Assembly (NCBI GenBank): GCA_903865015.1
Contig: CAIPID010000282.1
Span: 1-61,767 of the forward strand
DNA from: an uncultured beta proteobacterium
GTDB taxonomy: Bacteria > Pseudomonadota > Gammaproteobacteria > Burkholderiales > Burkholderiaceae_B
DNA: 61,767 nt
Direction: 5' to 3'
The position numbers and the translations under genes are program-made. The notes below the pieces were generated by a model that was given only the letters and a program-made list of their open reading frames with translations, made no database searches and was not told the DNA's origin. Within the stretch, counting starts at the first letter, position 1; every line of letters begins with the position of its first letter. This document shows positions 36,910 through 47,792 of this stretch, one piece after another.

Positions 36910-38607
36910 TTAAATCAAGCTCCAGCAGTCATCTTTCTCGATCACTCGATTTTCTTTTTTGAGTTTGTATAAATGAGCAAGCAGCGAGCGAGCAGCCAAT
37001 GCGTGGCGCTGGACGGGTGTGTCCTGATAGGCTTGCGCGACGAGCGCATCGATTGTTTGAGGTGAATCGCTCGATTGGATCGCTGCGATGATTTTATTTT
37101 CACGCGCCAGGCGATGCAGTACGAGCCTATCGATCGCATGTTCAGGGTGACCCATTAAAAAACCATGACCAGGTGCTAAATAATCGACATCTAGTTGTTT
37201 AAGCATCTCCAGTGATTGCAGGTAAGCATACATATCACCGTCAGGGGGATTGATGACAACGGTGGAGCCTTGCATCAAGTGATCACCGGTAAAGAGGATT
37301 TTCTCCGATTCATGGAGATAGCAAAGATGATTAGAGGCATGTCCAGGTGTATGGATGGCACGCAATCTAATGCCCGCTAATTCTAAAATCTGGTCGTGCG
37401 CCGGAATGACATCAGGGGTAAATTCCTGGTCCTGATTCGCGTGCGGTGGAGCAGCCATGCCAAAAACTGTTGCACCAGTGAGTGCTTTAAGTTTGTTTGA
37501 TGCAGGTGAATGGTCTCGGTGGGTATGGGTGGTCAGAATCCATTTGATCGCTCCGGGTGCATAGCGAATAATCGCCTCGATATGCTCACTCAGGTCGGGA
37601 CCGGGATCAATCACGGCCACTCCGGTTTGAGGCGAACCAAGCAGATATGTATTGGTGCCAGGCCCGGTCATGACGCCAGGATTGGGCGCCGTCAGTCGCC
37701 AGACATCTTTAGCAAGTTGCACGGGATGTCCCGGATCGATATCGGATTTAGTCGTGCCTTTGTTTTCCGGATCCAGTTTTTGCGCTTCTGCATAAGCATA
37801 GTCGCTTTGGATCAGCATGCGGATTGAGCCATCGCGTGCGGTGGATACGTGAGGCGTAGTCGCTGCGATCTCAGGTTTGGTGCGAGCATGTGCGAGCAAA
37901 TCCTCTACGCGCGCAAACTGCACCAGACTCTCCAGCGTCTTGATCGTGGGGAACATCAGATCAATCTCCCCCTGTTTGAATAGCTCAAGTGCCGCGTTTG
38001 GACGTACCCAAAGATGCGCAACAGTTTCTGAGTTGTCATGCATCGCAATTTGCTCGGCGGGTGCCGGTGCAATAAAAAATCTCGTATCGTAACGTCGTGG
38101 ACGTCCTGGCGTGGTGATCCAGTGGCTGTAATAAATTAACTGATCTGTTGCTGCGCGCAATTGCTCACGCTGCAGGAGTTGCGCGAAGCTCAGTTTGTTC
38201 TCTGCCAGCTCAAGTCTCAGCGCCGCAAGTTTCTCTGCGTCTGATGCATCGAGTTGTAGCCGTGTCTGGTCGTTACGATAGCCGATTAGCAATCCGGCTT
38301 CTTCAAAACACTCCCGAATCGCTGCGACCCAATAGGCAAGACCGCCAGTTTGTATGCCGAGTTCAGCACTCGCTCGATCATCGTCGACTCCGATGCACAA
38401 TGCGTGCATCTCACCATCATGATCAGACGCATCCACACCCCCACCCGGAAAGACATGCATGCCTTTTGCGAATGTGACTTCGGTGGTGCGTTTCATCATG
38501 AACACTTCAACCCCGTGTGCGGAGTCGCGCGCCAGAATGATGGTGGCAGCAGGGCGGGGATGTGATGGGTCTTTATGCACAAACGACTCGGGTTTGAAAG
38601 TATTCAT
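36910..38607 (-). CDS. Nudix hydrolase (NUDT19-like) fused to a metallo-beta-lactamase-fold domain (LACTB2-like)
   Basis: VFPGG...AAIRECFEEAG, WITTP..RRYDTRFF; APNPGVMTGPGTNTY, THTHRDH, TPGH, FTGD, PGHG. Confidence 0.88.
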   Translation of the reverse strand: MNTFKPESFVHKDPSHPRPAATIILARDSAHGVEVFMMKRTTEVTFAKGMHVFPGGGVDASDHDGEMHALCIGVDDDRASAELGIQTGGLAYWVAAIRECFEEAGLLIGYRNDQTRLQLDASDAEKLAALRLELAENKLSFAQLLQREQLRAATDQLIYYSHWITTPGRPRRYDTRFFIAPAPAEQIAMHDNSETVAHLWVRPNAALELFKQGEIDLMFPTIKTLESLVQFARVEDLLAHARTKPEIAATTPHVSTARDGSIRMLIQSDYAYAEAQKLDPENKGTTKSDIDPGHPVQLAKDVWRLTAPNPGVMTGPGTNTYLLGSPQTGVAVIDPGPDLSEHIEAIIRYAPGAIKWILTTHTHRDHSPASNKLKALTGATVFGMAAPPHANQDQEFTPDVIPAHDQILELAGIRLRAIHTPGHASNHLCYLHESEKILFTGDHLMQGSTVVINPPDGDMYAYLQSLEMLKQLDVDYLAPGHGFLMGHPEHAIDRLVLHRLARENKIIAAIQSSDSPQTIDALVAQAYQDTPVQRHALAARSLLAHLYKLKKENRVIEKDDCWSLI

Positions 38608-38711
38608 CTCTGGATGCGGATGCAGCCAGATCAACGCAGACTATAAAAATCAGACTCATAACCAGGGTTTAGGATAGCATTGACACAGATAAACATAACA
38701 AAAGGAGATAT

Positions 38712-39704
38712 ATGAAAAAGTTCATTTCCCGCAAAGTTTGGACAGCACTAGTTGCCATAACACTCGCAGGATTTTTTTGCGGCGCAGCAATTGCGCAGCA
38801 AAGTGTTTGGCCGAGTCACCCGATCAGGATGGTGATTCCTTTTGGTGCCGGGGGAGGGACAGATGTGATTGGCCGCCTACTTGCGCAAAAGTTGACTGAA
38901 AGTCTGGGACAGACTGTCGTGGTGGAGAATCGTCCTGGAGCAGGCGGGAGTCTGGGTACTGCAGAGGTGGCGCGTGCGCCGGGTGATGGATACACCATTC
39001 TGTTGGGGTCAAGCTCCACACATGGTATTAATCCAGGCATGTATGCCAAGTTACCTTATGACCCGATTAAAGACTTCGAACCTGTCGCCCTGATTGCGAC
39101 GAACCTGTTTGTGATGGCAGTACCAAAAGACTCATCGGTCCGCACCGTTGCAGATCTGATTAAGCTCTCGCAGACTGCGCCAGGCAAATATGATTATGCG
39201 TCTTCTGGGAATGGCACCACCAGTCATCTTGCCGCGGCATTATTTGTTTCCATGTCAGGAGCCAGTCTTACGCATATCCCCTACAAAAGTAATGTGCCCG
39301 GCTTGACGGATCTGGTCGCAGGGCGCGTGGCGATGATGTTCGACAATATCACTGCGATGCAAACGCAGATTAATGCTGGAACCATTCGTCCTGTCGCCAC
39401 AACAGGACTCAAGCGTAGTGCAGTGTTAAAGGATATCCCGACTTTCGATGAGTCCGGTGTCAAGGGTTACGACATCAGGGGCTGGTTTTGCGTGCTCGCA
39501 CCGGCCGGGACACCTGCTGCGATTGTCGCAAAGCTCAATCAAGCGCTCGTCAGAATTGTGGCGATACCAGAGGTGACAGAAAAACTCGTTGCAATCGGCG
39601 CAGATCCTGAAACAGGTTCACCTGAAGATCTAAAAAAACTGATTGCCTCTGAAATTTTGAAATATAAAAATATTATTGAAATCGCAGGCGCAAAGGTCGA
39701 GTAA
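38712..39704 (+). CDS. Bug/TctC solute receptor
   Basis: PFGAGGGTD, ENRPGAGG, IPYKS; AAGGAG RBS. Confidence 0.93.
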   Translation: MKKFISRKVWTALVAITLAGFFCGAAIAQQSVWPSHPIRMVIPFGAGGGTDVIGRLLAQKLTESLGQTVVVENRPGAGGSLGTAEVARAPGDGYTILLGSSSTHGINPGMYAKLPYDPIKDFEPVALIATNLFVMAVPKDSSVRTVADLIKLSQTAPGKYDYASSGNGTTSHLAAALFVSMSGASLTHIPYKSNVPGLTDLVAGRVAMMFDNITAMQTQINAGTIRPVATTGLKRSAVLKDIPTFDESGVKGYDIRGWFCVLAPAGTPAAIVAKLNQALVRIVAIPEVTEKLVAIGADPETGSPEDLKKLIASEILKYKNIIEIAGAKVE

Positions 39705-39743
39705 AAAAAAGCTGCACGCCTTTTACAAGGTCGTGCAGCTTTT
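39704..39743. terminator. bidirectional intrinsic terminator between convergent genes
   Basis: AAAAAAAGCTGCACG...CGTGCAGCTTTT; a second hairpin GCCCTG/CAGGGC at 39753-39770. Confidence 0.8.
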
Positions 39744-39786
39744 CGAAGTGCAGCCCTGGGGGTTCAGGGCCAAACTTATTTAAGAA

Positions 39787-41163
39787 TTAAGCACCCCATG
39801 GAGTGATTGCTTCTTTGAGCATTTTGTAGCCGTCAAGGTAACGTGGGCGCGAATCGCCAGCGTAAATCTTGTCGAATTTTGCAAGTTGCGCATCGAGCCA
39901 GTCAGCCAGTTGTTTGTTGCCTGGGTTGGCGGCTTTGTAGGCCTCGTTGATCAGCACAAAGTGGATGCGTGGGTCGTAAGGCTGCTTTTCGCCGCCAACG
40001 GTCTCGTCGCCGTCAAGCAAACGCAACAACATGGCATCTGCCGAGCCTAGAGTTTGCTCATAAATCGGAGCGCCGTGCAGGCGATACATCACGCTGGTCA
40101 TGTCTTTACCATTGGTCATGGTAAAGCCCATTTTGGTCCAGAGCTTTTTCATGTCTTCTTTGACACCTGCGCCATCGAGCACAATCTGACCCCAGTCACG
40201 CAGAACGTCAGGTGCGTCAGCCATCAAGTCTGTCAGGCGATCGCCGTCCAGATCGGTTGCGTACACGATGCACTTACGGTGACGAATCATGTCATGTAAC
40301 AACAGACCGAAGTTTGTGTCGGAGATGTGTTCGTAGATGTCGCCTTTCCAGTTTTCCATGCCGGCTTTGAAGTCTGCTGGCAGGAGAGCTACGATTGCGT
40401 CAACGTTTGCACGCTGCTCTTCGTATGCATCAACGGTGTATTTACGCTTGAGCGTGAATTGTGTGCCTTGTAACAACCAGCGCATGATGCCTGCGTTGAT
40501 AGCGTCTTCTTGGGCCTGGGTAGGCTTGGTGGCAACGCGGCCGATCTGGCCGGTTTCGTTAACCATTTGCAGGAACAGACGTGCCGCATAAGCCATGCGC
40601 ACGCCAGGGGTGTTCATCTCGGAGTGGATGTTGCCCGTGGCTGGATCGACTGCGAATTTTTTCTTGTCTTGCGAATAAGGCAGGCCAGGCATAAAACGAA
40701 TGCTGGTGATGCCACCGTAAGGACGTACGTTGCAATACACGCCTGCTGCGGTGCGCAAGGGGGCGTTAGCGGATTTGCCATTCACAACAACTTTTTTGCC
40801 ACCGTCGTTGACCATGAAATCGCCAGCCGTCGACCATTTCAGTGCGGTGTAATCGAGCTTGCCAAACCACTCAAGTGATTTGAGCTTTGAGTCATGGCGA
40901 TACTGCGCCATCATCGGGACGCCGAGGAAAGGCAGACCCAGCACGTCGAGTGCCATCAGGGTGCCATTCAATGCAAACATGTCAGTAAACGCGTGTGCGA
41001 CGGGTTTGACGCCGCCTGCAGGATTACCGCCTTCCCAGATGATCGCGTCAGGGCAACCAGTAGGTTTAACGTCAGAGCGCTTGTAGGTACTGTCGAGCAG
41101 TTTGAAGAGATCGCCGTTTTGCTCTTCTTGGGCGATTTTCAGCAAATCTAGAGGTTGTGACAT
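39787..41163 (-). CDS. divergent isocitrate/isopropylmalate dehydrogenase family enzyme (probably isocitrate dehydrogenase-like)
   Basis: ALKWST, KSANAPLR, NVRP, IRF....PY, TKPT, ISD, DGDRLTD, MTSV, EQTLGSA occur in the order of IDH motifs. Confidence 0.7.
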   Translation of the reverse strand: MSQPLDLLKIAQEEQNGDLFKLLDSTYKRSDVKPTGCPDAIIWEGGNPAGGVKPVAHAFTDMFALNGTLMALDVLGLPFLGVPMMAQYRHDSKLKSLEWFGKLDYTALKWSTAGDFMVNDGGKKVVVNGKSANAPLRTAAGVYCNVRPYGGITSIRFMPGLPYSQDKKKFAVDPATGNIHSEMNTPGVRMAYAARLFLQMVNETGQIGRVATKPTQAQEDAINAGIMRWLLQGTQFTLKRKYTVDAYEEQRANVDAIVALLPADFKAGMENWKGDIYEHISDTNFGLLLHDMIRHRKCIVYATDLDGDRLTDLMADAPDVLRDWGQIVLDGAGVKEDMKKLWTKMGFTMTNGKDMTSVMYRLHGAPIYEQTLGSADAMLLRLLDGDETVGGEKQPYDPRIHFVLINEAYKAANPGNKQLADWLDAQLAKFDKIYAGDSRPRYLDGYKMLKEAITPWGA

Positions 41164-41312
41164 ATTTGGAAAGCCTCAGTTAGGGTGAACTTTGATTATA
41201 CCCAAGGGAAAGTACGGGCATCAGAAAGCTTCCTGTAGGGTCTACCCATCGCTATACTCGGTACATAAATGTATGAAAAATACATAAAAATATAAAACAA
41301 CAGGAGATAAAC

Positions 41313-45993: not shown

Positions 45994-46794
45994 CTATTTG
46001 CCTTTCATCGCCGCCGCTGGAAATCGGTCCGCGAAAATGGTCCGCCATGAGGCTTGGGGTTGCAACAGAGCGTTGAGTGACGCCTCGTCAAAAAACTGAC
46101 CGGACTCCATCTGATTGAGCTGCCATGTCATACAGAAATTGGATGAGATCGCGGGGATCCCGAGATCGCTCAATGCCATGATCGGGCCGAGGGTTGGCAT
46201 GCCGGCGCCTGCGAGCAAAATGACATCAGGTTTGAGGGGTATCAGGCGCTTGGCCGCCTCGAGCACGGCAGGATTGCGCAGCGTATATATATTATGAAAA
46301 CCACCAACTTGCGTGGGAGACTCAATCCCGACGATTTCAACGCCCGCTCGTTTCCAGTAGGCAGCGCTCATATCGGTGAGCCATTGCGGGTAGGGGCTGA
46401 CTAGTCCGATACGTTTTACGCGCAGTGTTTCAAACGCTCGCCTGATCGATTGACCAGCCGATACGATGGAGTAACCGTATTTTTTACCAAGTTGCTCGAA
46501 ATAGGCATCCTCCTGATCCGGCGACCAGTGGTAGGTCGAGCCCGTAATCAGAAAGCCCAAGCCTGAAAGCGGCGCATTGGCGAAGGTACCGATAAATCCT
46601 TCGATGCCATCGAGAAAGTCTACGAGACGATCGCGTAGCTCAGGCTGAGGGCTTGTCAGGCGTCCTGTAAGGAGCGCGATATCTCGCCCGAGCATCGCCT
46701 GAACCTCAGGCTCGGCAGTTGTGTTGGCTTGTGGCACAAGCAAGCCCAGAGTTCCGCGCGCACCATATTCGACTTCATTATTCATAACGACCAT
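45994..46794 (-). CDS. Asp/Glu racemase superfamily protein (maleate isomerase/arylmalonate decarboxylase-like)
   Basis: LGLLVPQANTTAEPE, RIGLVSPY, ISSN; start 46794 or 46785. Confidence 0.8.
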   Translation of the reverse strand: MVVMNNEVEYGARGTLGLLVPQANTTAEPEVQAMLGRDIALLTGRLTSPQPELRDRLVDFLDGIEGFIGTFANAPLSGLGFLITGSTYHWSPDQEDAYFEQLGKKYGYSIVSAGQSIRRAFETLRVKRIGLVSPYPQWLTDMSAAYWKRAGVEIVGIESPTQVGGFHNIYTLRNPAVLEAAKRLIPLKPDVILLAGAGMPTLGPIMALSDLGIPAISSNFCMTWQLNQMESGQFFDEASLNALLQPQASWRTIFADRFPAAAMKGK

Positions 46795-46808
46795 GCTAGC
46801 ATTTTGAT

Positions 46809-47792
46809 ATGAAAAAAACTTTAAAAATAATACAAATTTTTTTATTGGCTTCAAGCCTTATTACGACTTCCCTGACCGCTTACGCGCAAGCGCAGACATG
46901 GCCTGATAAACCTATTCGACTGATTAACCCTTTTGCACCTGGTGGCTTCGGTGATACGGTTGCCCGCCCATTGTTGGATCGACTCGCGCAGAGTTTGGGG
47001 CAGTCAATTATTGTAGAAAGTCATGGTGGTGCGAATGGAACACTTGCGTCTAATGTTGTCGCGCGGTCGCCTGCCGATGGCTATACCTTGTTGCTGGCAA
47101 ATTTAGGTCCGATTGCAATCAGTCCAGCCCTGCAGCCTGCTACCACACTGGACCCATTGAAAAATTTTGCGGCCATCACGCAATTAGTTTCAGGGCCACT
47201 TATTCTGCTGGTGCATCCTGAAGTGCCTGCAAATAATTTAAAGGAGCTGCTTGAGCTTGCCCGCAAAGATCCGGGTAAGTTGTCGTATGGTTCAGTGGGG
47301 GCGGGGAGCACAACGCATTTGGCTGGTGAGTTGTTGAGTCAGCGTGCTGGTATTGAATGGTTGCATGTGCCATACAAAGGCGCAGCACCAGTGATTACGA
47401 ATTTATTGGGCAAGCAAATCGATGTCGGGATTGTCAATATTTCGCTTGCTAAAGCTTATGTGGATTCAGGCCGATTAAAGCCGATTGCCGTTACAACACT
47501 CAAGCGCTCAGCGGTGATGCCAGATGTTCCTGCCATAGCAGAGTTGATTCCGGATTTTGAGGTCAATCCCTGGTGGGGATTGATGGCGCCAATCGGAACG
47601 CCTCAGTCGGTGATTGAGCGTATTCAAAATGAAACGATACGGCTTATCCAGTTACCTGAGGTGGCCGAGCGTTTTCGTCAGTCTGGCCTTGAGCCAGAGG
47701 GTACAACCGCCGTGGCCTTTGATGCCCGTATTCGAAGTGATTTAAAGCAATGGCAAGATTTGGCTCGCACCAATAAAATCGTGATAGATTGA
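46809..47792 (+). CDS. Bug/TctC solute receptor
   Basis: PFAPGGFGD, GGANG, VPYKG. Confidence 0.92.
   Translation: MKKTLKIIQIFLLASSLITTSLTAYAQAQTWPDKPIRLINPFAPGGFGDTVARPLLDRLAQSLGQSIIVESHGGANGTLASNVVARSPADGYTLLLANLGPIAISPALQPATTLDPLKNFAAITQLVSGPLILLVHPEVPANNLKELLELARKDPGKLSYGSVGAGSTTHLAGELLSQRAGIEWLHVPYKGAAPVITNLLGKQIDVGIVNISLAKAYVDSGRLKPIAVTTLKRSAVMPDVPAIAELIPDFEVNPWWGLMAPIGTPQSVIERIQNETIRLIQLPEVAERFRQSGLEPEGTTAVAFDARIRSDLKQWQDLARTNKIVID

What the first reader, a model, noticed from the sequence alone, without database searches (positions are those of the whole stretch)
39787..41163. Highly divergent isocitrate-dehydrogenase-like enzyme with an intact substrate site but a rewritten coenzyme site
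Seen: the 458-aa protein has little overall resemblance to standard IDHs, but its motifs align in order, by eye, with type II (human IDH1-like) IDH. ALKWST matches VKCAT; KSANAPLR matches KSPNGTIR (Ser94/Asn96/Arg100); NVRP matches FRE (Arg109); IRFMPGLPY matches GRHAYGDQY (Arg132, catalytic Tyr139); TKPT matches TKNT (catalytic Lys212); HISD matches LIDD; DLDGDRLTD matches NYDGDVQSD (metal-binding Asp residues); MTSV is identical. The normally conserved EAAHGTVTRH reads EQTLGSADAM, so the His is lost and the NADP 2'-phosphate-binding Arg/His become Ala/Met; the later NP reads DP. It has an N-terminal extension of roughly 50 aa, its own TATAAT (41195-41200, minus strand) and its own terminator. 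Inference: a stand-alone, possibly undescribed clade of beta-decarboxylating dehydrogenase, probably NAD-preferring or using another cofactor or substrate.
Basis: partly seen in the sequence, partly recalled or inferred. Interest (0 to 1): 0.8.

Follow-up and report, generated by a model that had tools for sequence, protein, structure and literature searches.

The report
Hidden fourth type of isocitrate dehydrogenase
This unannotated protein is predicted to fold like isocitrate dehydrogenase and keeps motifs matching its catalytic residues; its relatives often sit where the standard gene normally lies, in bacteria that mostly lack a recognisable one, so it likely performs this Krebs-cycle step, probably with NAD.

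Summary
The 458-aa ORF is real and belongs to a large, conserved family (2009 clusters) that Pfam, NCBIfam and PDB sequence searches miss. The AlphaFold model (pLDDT 92) matches type II isocitrate dehydrogenases best (Z 27, 15% identity), and a homodimer is predicted (0.84 vs control 0.00). Across Burkholderiales, 4 of 27 carrier genomes have a recognisable IDH, against 51 of 53 non-carriers. In 11 of 27 carriers the gene lies beside csp-clpS, the usual icd slot. Here it has TCA-enzyme-like codon bias (rank 16 of 2246), while the retained canonical icd ranks 637. NAD preference is inferred: no Arg/His pair, and isocitrate lyase in 0 of 9 carriers. The usual NAD-selecting Asp is shifted by one residue and the coenzyme His is lost. 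Verdict: a probably undescribed IDH subfamily replacing icd; activity untested. IDH about 0.85; NAD-preferring IDH about 0.58.

The parts
39787..41163 (-). ORF, 458 aa, IDH-fold enzyme of an unannotated family
41023..41163 (-). N-terminal extension, residues 1-47 (helices 7-16, 19-26), outside the alignment to solved type II IDHs, conserved in the family
40828..40839 (-). K109-W-S-T112 (type II KCAT; Lys72/Thr77-like, human roles recalled), both invariant
40753..40773 (-). S131-x-N133-x3-R137 isocitrate-type substrate motif (type II SPNGTIR, type I SLNVALR)
40723..40725 (-). R147 (Arg109 equivalent), invariant
40675..40698 (-). R156-x6-Y163 (Arg132 and catalytic Tyr139 equivalents), invariant
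   Evidence: equivalence by motif spacing and order
40525..40527 (-). K213 (catalytic Lys212' equivalent), invariant
40318..40320 (-). D282 (metal ligand from the partner subunit, Asp252' equivalent, inferred), invariant, at the predicted dimer interface
40228..40254 (-). D304-L-D-G-D308-R-L-T-D312 metal-binding helix start (type II NYDGDVQSD)
40030..40059 (-). E369-Q-T-L-G373-S-A-D376-A377-M378 coenzyme loop: His replaced by Leu372, Arg/His replaced by Ala/Met, Asp one residue early
41195..41200 (-). -10-like TATAAT; relatives have TGCGATAAT in the same region
41174..41177 (-). GAGG ribosome-binding site, 10 nt before ATG
39703..39744 (-). intrinsic terminator hairpin plus T8, likely bidirectional (overlaps the stop of the convergent tctC-family gene)

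Best explanation
The gene encodes a predicted homodimeric, metal-dependent enzyme of the isocitrate dehydrogenase fold that likely converts isocitrate to 2-oxoglutarate and CO2 as the main TCA-cycle IDH of its hosts, probably with NAD+, and has likely displaced the canonical icd gene in several Burkholderiales families. Mechanism, by analogy with type II IDH (inferred; residue roles partly recalled): T112, S131, N133, R137, R147 and R156 bind isocitrate. D308, D312 and D282' of the partner subunit hold Mg2+/Mn2+. K213' and Y163 act as base and acid for oxidation to oxalosuccinate and decarboxylation. E369 and the G373 loop hold the nicotinamide cofactor. With no Arg/His at 377/378 there is no usual anchor for the 2'-phosphate of NADP, and D376 may take over ribose binding. 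Shown: sequence, conservation, genome distribution, synteny, codon bias. Predicted: fold and dimer. Inferred: substrate, cofactor, displacement history. P(isocitrate dehydrogenase, any cofactor) is about 0.85.
For: Fold: pLDDT 92, pTM 0.89. Foldseek best hits are O. tauri IDH, E 8.5e-12. VIA Z 27.0, rmsd 3.0, 313 aligned, and all 50 rows shown are type II IDHs. Unbiased search: type II Z 25.8 and 23.9, type I/IPMDH/HICDH 19-21.5, monomeric 12.7. Dimer score 0.84 vs best control 0.00 (mark reached by 20 of 30 solved homo-pairs and 1 of 23 monomers; runs agree in at least 96% of contacts, pLDDT at least 91; the pass may reflect likeness to solved IDH dimers); the interface includes 130-131, 161-163, 176-188, 215-219, 281-283, 305-306, 308-309, 311-313 and 376. 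9 of 10 named residues invariant. Recognised IDH in 4 of 27 carriers vs 51 of 53 non-carriers. No in-place S-x-N-x3-R motif in 85 of 85 Iso_dh paralogs from 14 carrier genomes. Beside csp-clpS in 11 of 27 carrier loci vs csp or clpS in 20 of 30 icd loci. CAI rank 16 of 2246 (mdh 27, sucA 43, gltA 55, icd 637). For NAD: Met378 matches Met327 of NAD-specific OlIDH (PMC4360740, passages). Distant members P0145 (GTAPDL) and P0134 (GTATDL) have Asp at the usual NAD position. Isocitrate lyase in 0 of 9 carriers vs 5 of 5 icd controls, and ICL-less organisms are said to bear NAD-IDH (PMC5909895, passage citing Zhu 2005).
Against: No activity data. No residue-level superposition was returned, so equivalences rest on motif order, spacing and invariance. 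Profile-profile comparisons were weak or insignificant (type II prob 0.7%, type I 53%, IPMDH/TDH 0.3%). The window's own genome keeps an intact icd above the NCBIfam cut-off, as do 3 of 12 genus carriers and 7 of 37 locus-reached carriers. At least 16 of the 23 order-level carriers without a recognised IDH have a paralog with P-S-x-A-I-A-L-R-like instead of S-x-N; the one member scanned has an IDH model as its best NCBIfam hit, below cut-off (391 vs 510). These paralogs could supply IDH activity. The coenzyme His is lost and the Asp is at +3, not +4. One distant member (P0123) has Arg at +4 and Lys at the K260-like position, an NADP-like pattern. The Zwartia vadi paper lists the TCA cycle as encoded without naming an IDH gap (PMC10535154, passages). 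Carriers are kin-clustered, so the counts are not independent.
Confidence: 0.58

Rival explanations
1. It is the TCA-cycle isocitrate dehydrogenase, but NADP-preferring or dual-specific through a non-canonical phosphate site.
For: Ala377 does not repel a 2'-phosphate as the usual Asp would. H290 lies at the K260-like position and R381 nearby. P0123 has Arg/Lys at the NADP positions. It replaces an NADP-type icd, and malate synthase is adjacent in 8 of 27 carrier loci.
Against: The Arg/His pair is absent in 106 of 107 locus proteins (one truncated). D376 is invariant in those 106. No isocitrate lyase in 0 of 9 and no AceK in 0 of 5 carriers tested.
Confidence: 0.27
2. It is a beta-hydroxyacid oxidative decarboxylase for another substrate (homoisocitrate, an alkylmalate or an unknown tricarboxylate), or a broad-specificity enzyme; isocitrate turnover in these hosts is done by a paralog.
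For: Only 14-17% identity to any solved IDH, with large indels near the substrate loop and clasp. HICDH-like paralogs exist in at least 16 of 27 order-level carriers. The own genome has icd.
Against: The S-x-N-x3-R motif is the IDH type, not the IPMDH/TDH type. The gene occupies the icd slot and has no conserved pathway neighbours elsewhere. 11 of 14 fully inspected carriers have neither a recognised IDH nor the KGP-type paralog.
Confidence: 0.1
3. It oxidises isocitrate with a non-nicotinamide acceptor or needs an unidentified partner, which would explain the rewritten coenzyme loop and the N-terminal extension.
For: Loss of the coenzyme His; about 47-residue extension; extra helical insertion between D312 and E369.
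Against: E369, G373 and the S/T-A loop are kept. No conserved partner gene. The own canonical icd also lacks this His (EATSGT), so its loss has a precedent.
Confidence: 0.03
4. It is an inactive or regulatory IDH homologue.
For: Coenzyme His missing; co-occurs with icd in the own genome.
Against: All inferred catalytic and metal residues are invariant; usually there is no canonical IDH to regulate; strong codon bias.
Confidence: 0.02

Closest known systems
Type II homodimeric NAD-IDHs (Ostreococcus tauri OtIDH, PDB 6ixl/7e2w; O. lucimarinus OlIDH; P. tricornutum PtIDH1)
   Same: Best Foldseek hit and best hit of the wide structural search (Z 25.8, rmsd 3.6, 318 aligned); same inferred substrate and metal residues; Met at the His315 position; type II-like KxxT, KxT, DGD and MTSV motifs.
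   Different: 14-17% identity; no HMM match; His of EAAHG replaced by Leu; the discriminating Asp is Ala with Asp one residue earlier; about 47-aa N-terminal extension and several indels.
Type II NADP-IDH (human IDH1/IDH2, TIGR00127)
   Same: Z up to 27.0, rmsd 3.0 over 313 residues; predicted dimer through the equivalent helices and clasp.
   Different: Arg314/His315 absent; no TIGR00127 match; profile-profile probability 0.7%.
Type I Icd (TIGR00183) and IDH3-like tetrameric NAD-IDH
   Same: S-x-N-x3-R-x9-R motif aligns; the new gene often occupies the csp-clpS-clpA / rluE slot of icd.
   Different: Lower structural Z (19-21.5); no HMM match; often the opposite orientation in the slot, so replacement rather than divergence in place (inferred).
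Monomeric type III IDH (PF03971)
   Same: Precedent for an IDH type too divergent for the Iso_dh profile (about 10% identity to others per PMC4360740).
   Different: 458 aa rather than about 740; Z 12.7; predicted homodimer.
IPMDH / tartrate DH / homoisocitrate DH
   Same: Same fold (Z 20-21) and the same Arg/Tyr/Lys/Asp scaffold.
   Different: Their substrate helix lacks S-x-N in all 85 paralogs inspected; LeuB and TDH are present separately in the own genome.

Membership tests
IDH/IPMDH structural superfamily | Isocitrate/isopropylmalate dehydrogenase fold | tested here: met
   predicted model
IDH/IPMDH structural superfamily | Three substrate Arg, catalytic Tyr and Lys', three metal Asp, in order | tested here: met
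   R137, R147, R156, Y163, K213, D282, D308, D312 invariant in 13 of 13; equivalence by motif, not by superposition
IDH/IPMDH structural superfamily | Dimer with a composite active site | tested here: met
   prediction only: 0.84 vs control 0.00; may pass by likeness to solved dimers
IDH/IPMDH structural superfamily | Metal- and NAD(P)-dependent oxidative decarboxylation | not testable with these tools
   needs an assay
Pfam Iso_dh PF00180 | HMM match | tested here: not met
   no match for P0001 at E<=10 or for any of 97 alignment members at E<=1
Isocitrate dehydrogenases (function) | S-x-N-x3-R substrate motif with upstream Thr | tested here: met
   T112, S131, N133, R137
Isocitrate dehydrogenases (function) | Isocitrate is the preferred substrate | not testable with these tools
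   indirect support from distribution and synteny
Type II IDH (TIGR00127) | Family HMM / sequence clade | tested here: not met
   0 NCBIfam families; hhalign probability 0.7%; 13-17% identity
Type II IDH (TIGR00127) | Nearest structural neighbour | tested here: met
Type II IDH (TIGR00127) | EAAHGT coenzyme motif with His | tested here: not met
   EQTLGS; position 372 is Leu in 11 of 13, never His
Type II NADP-IDH | Arg314/His315 | tested here: not met
   A377/M378
Type II NAD-IDH (OlIDH/OtIDH) | Asp/Met(Leu) at the 314/315 positions | tested here: inconclusive
   Met present; Asp one residue earlier in this clade, in place in P0134, P0145 and P0121
Type I Icd (TIGR00183) | Family HMM; K344/Y345-type loop | tested here: not met
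Monomeric IDH (PF03971) | About 740-aa single chain, HMM match | tested here: not met
   458 aa; no Pfam hit; Z 12.7
IPMDH/TDH/HICDH | Family HMMs and their substrate helix | tested here: not met
Position in the IDH family tree | Separate clade versus nested in type II | not tested
   no usable cross-family alignment; only a within-family quick tree was built

The most novel reading that the evidence does not exclude
This is a fourth type of isocitrate dehydrogenase, invisible to current profile libraries. It has displaced icd (often in its chromosomal slot) in at least seven Burkholderiales families, extends as deep branches to Binatia, Holosporales and probably a TGA=Gly (Gracilibacteria-like) lineage, and selects NAD by a new rule (no His, Asp shifted one residue and placed at the dimer interface), with a separate NADP-type branch among distant members.
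Probability: 0.5. Interest if true: 0.82.

Novelty: new variant of a known kind. Interest (0 to 1): 0.72.

Why it matters
IDH is one of the best-studied enzymes, and its classification into three subfamilies has been called complete with respect to coenzyme specificity (PMC4360740, conclusion passage). A fourth, HMM-invisible type would fill a TCA-cycle gap in many Burkholderiales, including cultured Zwartia strains, and correct metabolic reconstructions that find no IDH. It would add a test case for the NAD/NADP-isocitrate-lyase rule and show a new way to bind the coenzyme without the conserved His. It is directly testable with one expression construct and an E. coli icd mutant.

Tried and rejected
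Sequence-level assignment failed: Pfam, NCBIfam, phmmer and hmmsearch of PDB gave nothing significant (best relevant hit S. pombe HICDH at E 0.9). ESM Atlas gave only unnamed clusters under 0.9. hhalign to small type II, type I and IPMDH/TDH alignments was weak, so no cross-family tree was attempted. The within-family tree is the quick version, with long-branch warnings. No viral relatives with alignment A1. The metagenome scan with P0123 found none, so contexts of distant members are unknown. One freshwater metatranscriptome had 129 contigs laid on the region, 4 of them at least 99% alike; it held only a small share of the words and was found with this stretch, so it is not used as evidence of expression. 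Operon or pathway partner rejected: neighbours vary in the Zwartia-type loci. Dropped from counts: G465 (E 4e-4, 59-position fragment with a stop) and G000; two off-position S-x-N hits in LeuB open frames. Earlier scan findings: none. Literature: nine searches listed no description of this family. The library lacks most subscription papers; no supplements were read; InterPro, SUPERFAMILY and AlphaFold DB annotations could not be checked.

Full report
Observation. It is flanked by a divergent ABC-transporter binding-protein gene and a convergent TctC-family gene. TATAAT lies at 41200-41195 and GAGG 10 nt before the ATG. The -35 is poor and the consensus scan missed the site, but [GT]ATAAT is upstream in 46 of 48 close loci (no shuffle control). 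Downstream a hairpin at 39744-39706 runs into T8; the 93-nt region folds at -41.1 kcal/mol, z -7.2. The gene is therefore probably monocistronic (inferred).

Family. The homologue search gave 2009 clusters at E<=0.001 among 7998 scored candidates; 31 of the 120 listed carry a name, all 'hypothetical protein'. The exhaustive 50%-cluster search gave 216 proteins, with near-full-length members down to 28-29% identity. Named sources of distant members include Holosporales and Binatia. No Pfam or NCBIfam family matches the protein, and Iso_dh matches none of 97 members. PDB sequence searches are blank. In a 13-sequence alignment down to 25% identity, 24 of 457 positions are invariant, among them K109, T112, N133, R137, R147, R156, Y163, K213, D282, D304, D308, T311, D312 and G373.

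Structure. AlphaFold2 with 97 sequences gave pLDDT 92.1, pTM 0.89. Foldseek ranks O. tauri IDH first (E 8.5e-12, 14% identity), with IPMDHs and other IDHs close behind. VIA re-alignment gives Z 27.0, rmsd 3.0, 313 residues to human IDH1, and all 50 rows shown are type II IDHs, spanning model residues 47-458. The Foldseek-independent search ranks type II first (Z 25.8, 23.9), then type I, IDH3, IPMDH and HICDH (19-21.5), PdxA and monomeric IDH (12.7). Two copies with NAD and Mg riding along scored 0.84 against a best control of 0.00. The mark was reached by 20 of 30 solved homo-pairs and 1 of 23 monomers, runs agree in at least 96% of contacts, pLDDT is at least 91, and the pass may come from likeness to solved IDH dimers; ligands were not scored. 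The interface includes the segments carrying S131, Y163, D282, D308, D312 and D376. No tool returned a residue-level superposition, and profile-profile alignments were weak, so residue equivalences are by motif, spacing and conservation. Roles of R100, R109, R132, K212' and D275 are from passages of bioRxiv 10.1101/2020.04.19.049387; roles of T77, S94, N96, Y139, D252, D279, E306, H309 and K260 are recalled.

Which substrate? The own genome (86.7% complete) has six full Iso_dh genes: a canonical icd, LeuB, two tartrate-dehydrogenase-type genes and two unassigned; no monomeric or type II IDH was found. Wider, the gene is in 12 of 12 sampled genomes of the own genus and 0 of 238 others of the family. 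It is in 27 of 400 genomes drawn across the order, in six further families (one weak fragment dropped). Of these 27, four have a recognisable IDH: G583 icd, G395 icd below cut-off, G390 type II and G473 IDH3-like with S-x-N. Of 53 non-carriers (the first handles of that draw, about one per family), 46 have icd, three more the monomeric form and two more type II, so 51 of 53; the two without are a 0.9-Mb genome and a 93%-complete one. In the own genus, icd is in 3 of 12 carriers against 61 of 68 other family genomes; two more have an S-x-N IDH3-like gene, none type II, and monomeric was 0 of 5 tested. Among 37 genomes reached through loci, icd is in 7, monomeric in 0 and a split type II in 1. 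All 85 Iso_dh paralogs of 14 carrier genomes were scanned, including G016, G018 and G019 (the genomes of the Zwartia hollandica, Z. panacis and Z. vadi loci): none has S-x-N-x3-R at the substrate helix, while 4 of 4 control IDHs do (a few are fragments). Against this, at least 16 of the 23 order-level carriers without a recognised IDH have a KGP-type paralog reading P-S-x-A-I-A-L-R or similar; the one scanned has an IDH model as its best hit, below cut-off. It is absent from 11 of the 14 fully inspected genomes. Carriers are clustered by descent, so no P value is given.

Synteny. Canonical icd lies within 1.5 kb of csp or clpS in 20 of 30 control loci, and of csp, clpS, rluE or a DUF192-type gene (label recalled) in 27 of 30. 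The new gene lies beside csp and clpS in 11 of 27 carrier loci, with malate synthase adjacent in 8 of 27 (other labels), and beside csp in 14 of the first 80 loci. It often points the other way from icd between csp and rluE, which fits replacement rather than divergence in place (inferred). In Zwartia-type loci, including this window, neighbours vary, and the csp-clpS-clpA block of the own genome holds no IDH-like gene among the markers tested. In the quick tree the Zwartia-type proteins nest among other Burkholderiales families; with absence from the rest of the family this suggests horizontal acquisition (inferred, not tested). Codon adaptation against seven housekeeping genes ranks the gene 16 of 2246, with mdh 27, sucA 43, gltA 55 and the canonical icd 637.

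Which coenzyme? E369-x3-G373 fixes the register to EAAHG (one search aligns this stretch, at low significance). The Arg314/His315 pair of NADP enzymes (PMC7460673, passages) is Ala377/Met378. NAD-specific type II enzymes have Asp/Met there, and swapping them reverses specificity (PMC4360740, passages). Here the Met matches, but the Asp is one residue earlier (D376, in 106 of 107 locus proteins). Distant members have Asp in the usual place (P0145 GTAPDL, P0134 GTATDL, P0121 GTADDM), and one has Arg (P0123). Full-length isocitrate lyase was found in 0 of 9 carriers and 5 of 5 icd-bearing controls, and AceK in 0 of 5 carriers (no matched controls). Organisms without ICL are reported to bear NAD-IDH (PMC5909895, passage citing Zhu et al. 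2005, which I did not see). NAD is therefore favoured, about two to one, not shown. The lost His has a precedent in the own icd (EATSGT).

Comparison and novelty. It works like a type II IDH but fails membership tests for types I, II and III and for PF00180. Two papers describe three IDH subfamilies (PMC4360740 passages; PMC8287583 start of abstract in a listing). Nine searches listed nothing on this family. Passages of PMC10535154 state that the three Zwartia genomes encode the TCA cycle and do not mention isocitrate. PMC6292386 passages were not relevant. A preprint reports marine UBA868 genomes lacking icd but having ICL (passages); I did not test them. No supplements were read, and subscription literature and structure-based annotation databases were out of reach, so 'undescribed' is provisional.

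Verdict. Observation confirmed and interpretation supported and sharpened: most likely a new IDH subfamily that replaces icd. New variant of a known kind; interest 0.72.

Noticed in passing
G000:C153:2557-3813 (L086); L141, L143-L146: Canonical icd genes retained in carriers show changes in otherwise conserved motifs (EATHG to EATSG in three, HGT to HGP in two, altered KGPLTTP), and the own icd has weak codon bias; possibly relaxed selection. Two non-carrier icd genes (L151, L152) are also divergent, so this is not specific.
   Followed up: partly
L225-L244, L254, L266, L282: An unassigned ~350-aa IDH3/HICDH-like paralog with a lengthened substrate loop (KGPTxTPFG...PSxAIALR), common in carrier families; the one scanned is below cut-off for every NCBIfam model.
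   Followed up: partly
P0124: 5 of its 14 Trp fall in columns where other members have Gly (0 in the 12 other rows), suggesting TGA=Gly and a Gracilibacteria/Absconditabacteria-like host, unusual for a TCA enzyme (inference).
   Followed up: no
L068, L072-L075, L077-L080: Malate synthase A lies directly beside the gene, although no isocitrate lyase was found in the carriers tested; it may serve glyoxylate or glycolate use.
   Followed up: partly
L009, L012, L057, L060, L067, L069: Record titles such as Bordetella parapertussis, Enterobacteriaceae, Eremiobacteraeota or Thermoflexus carry proteins 85-91% identical to this one, some in Burkholderiales gene order; likely mislabelled bins.
   Followed up: no
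window 36910-38634 (-): NUDIX plus metallo-beta-lactamase-fold plus winged-helix fusion protein.
   Followed up: no
window 45994-46854 (-): Arylmalonate decarboxylase / Asp-Glu racemase-like gene downstream of the ABC operon that is divergent from the IDH-like gene.
   Followed up: no
G395:C183:1983-3230: A full-length icd scoring below the TIGR00183 cut-off (550 vs 567) in a carrier genome.
   Followed up: no
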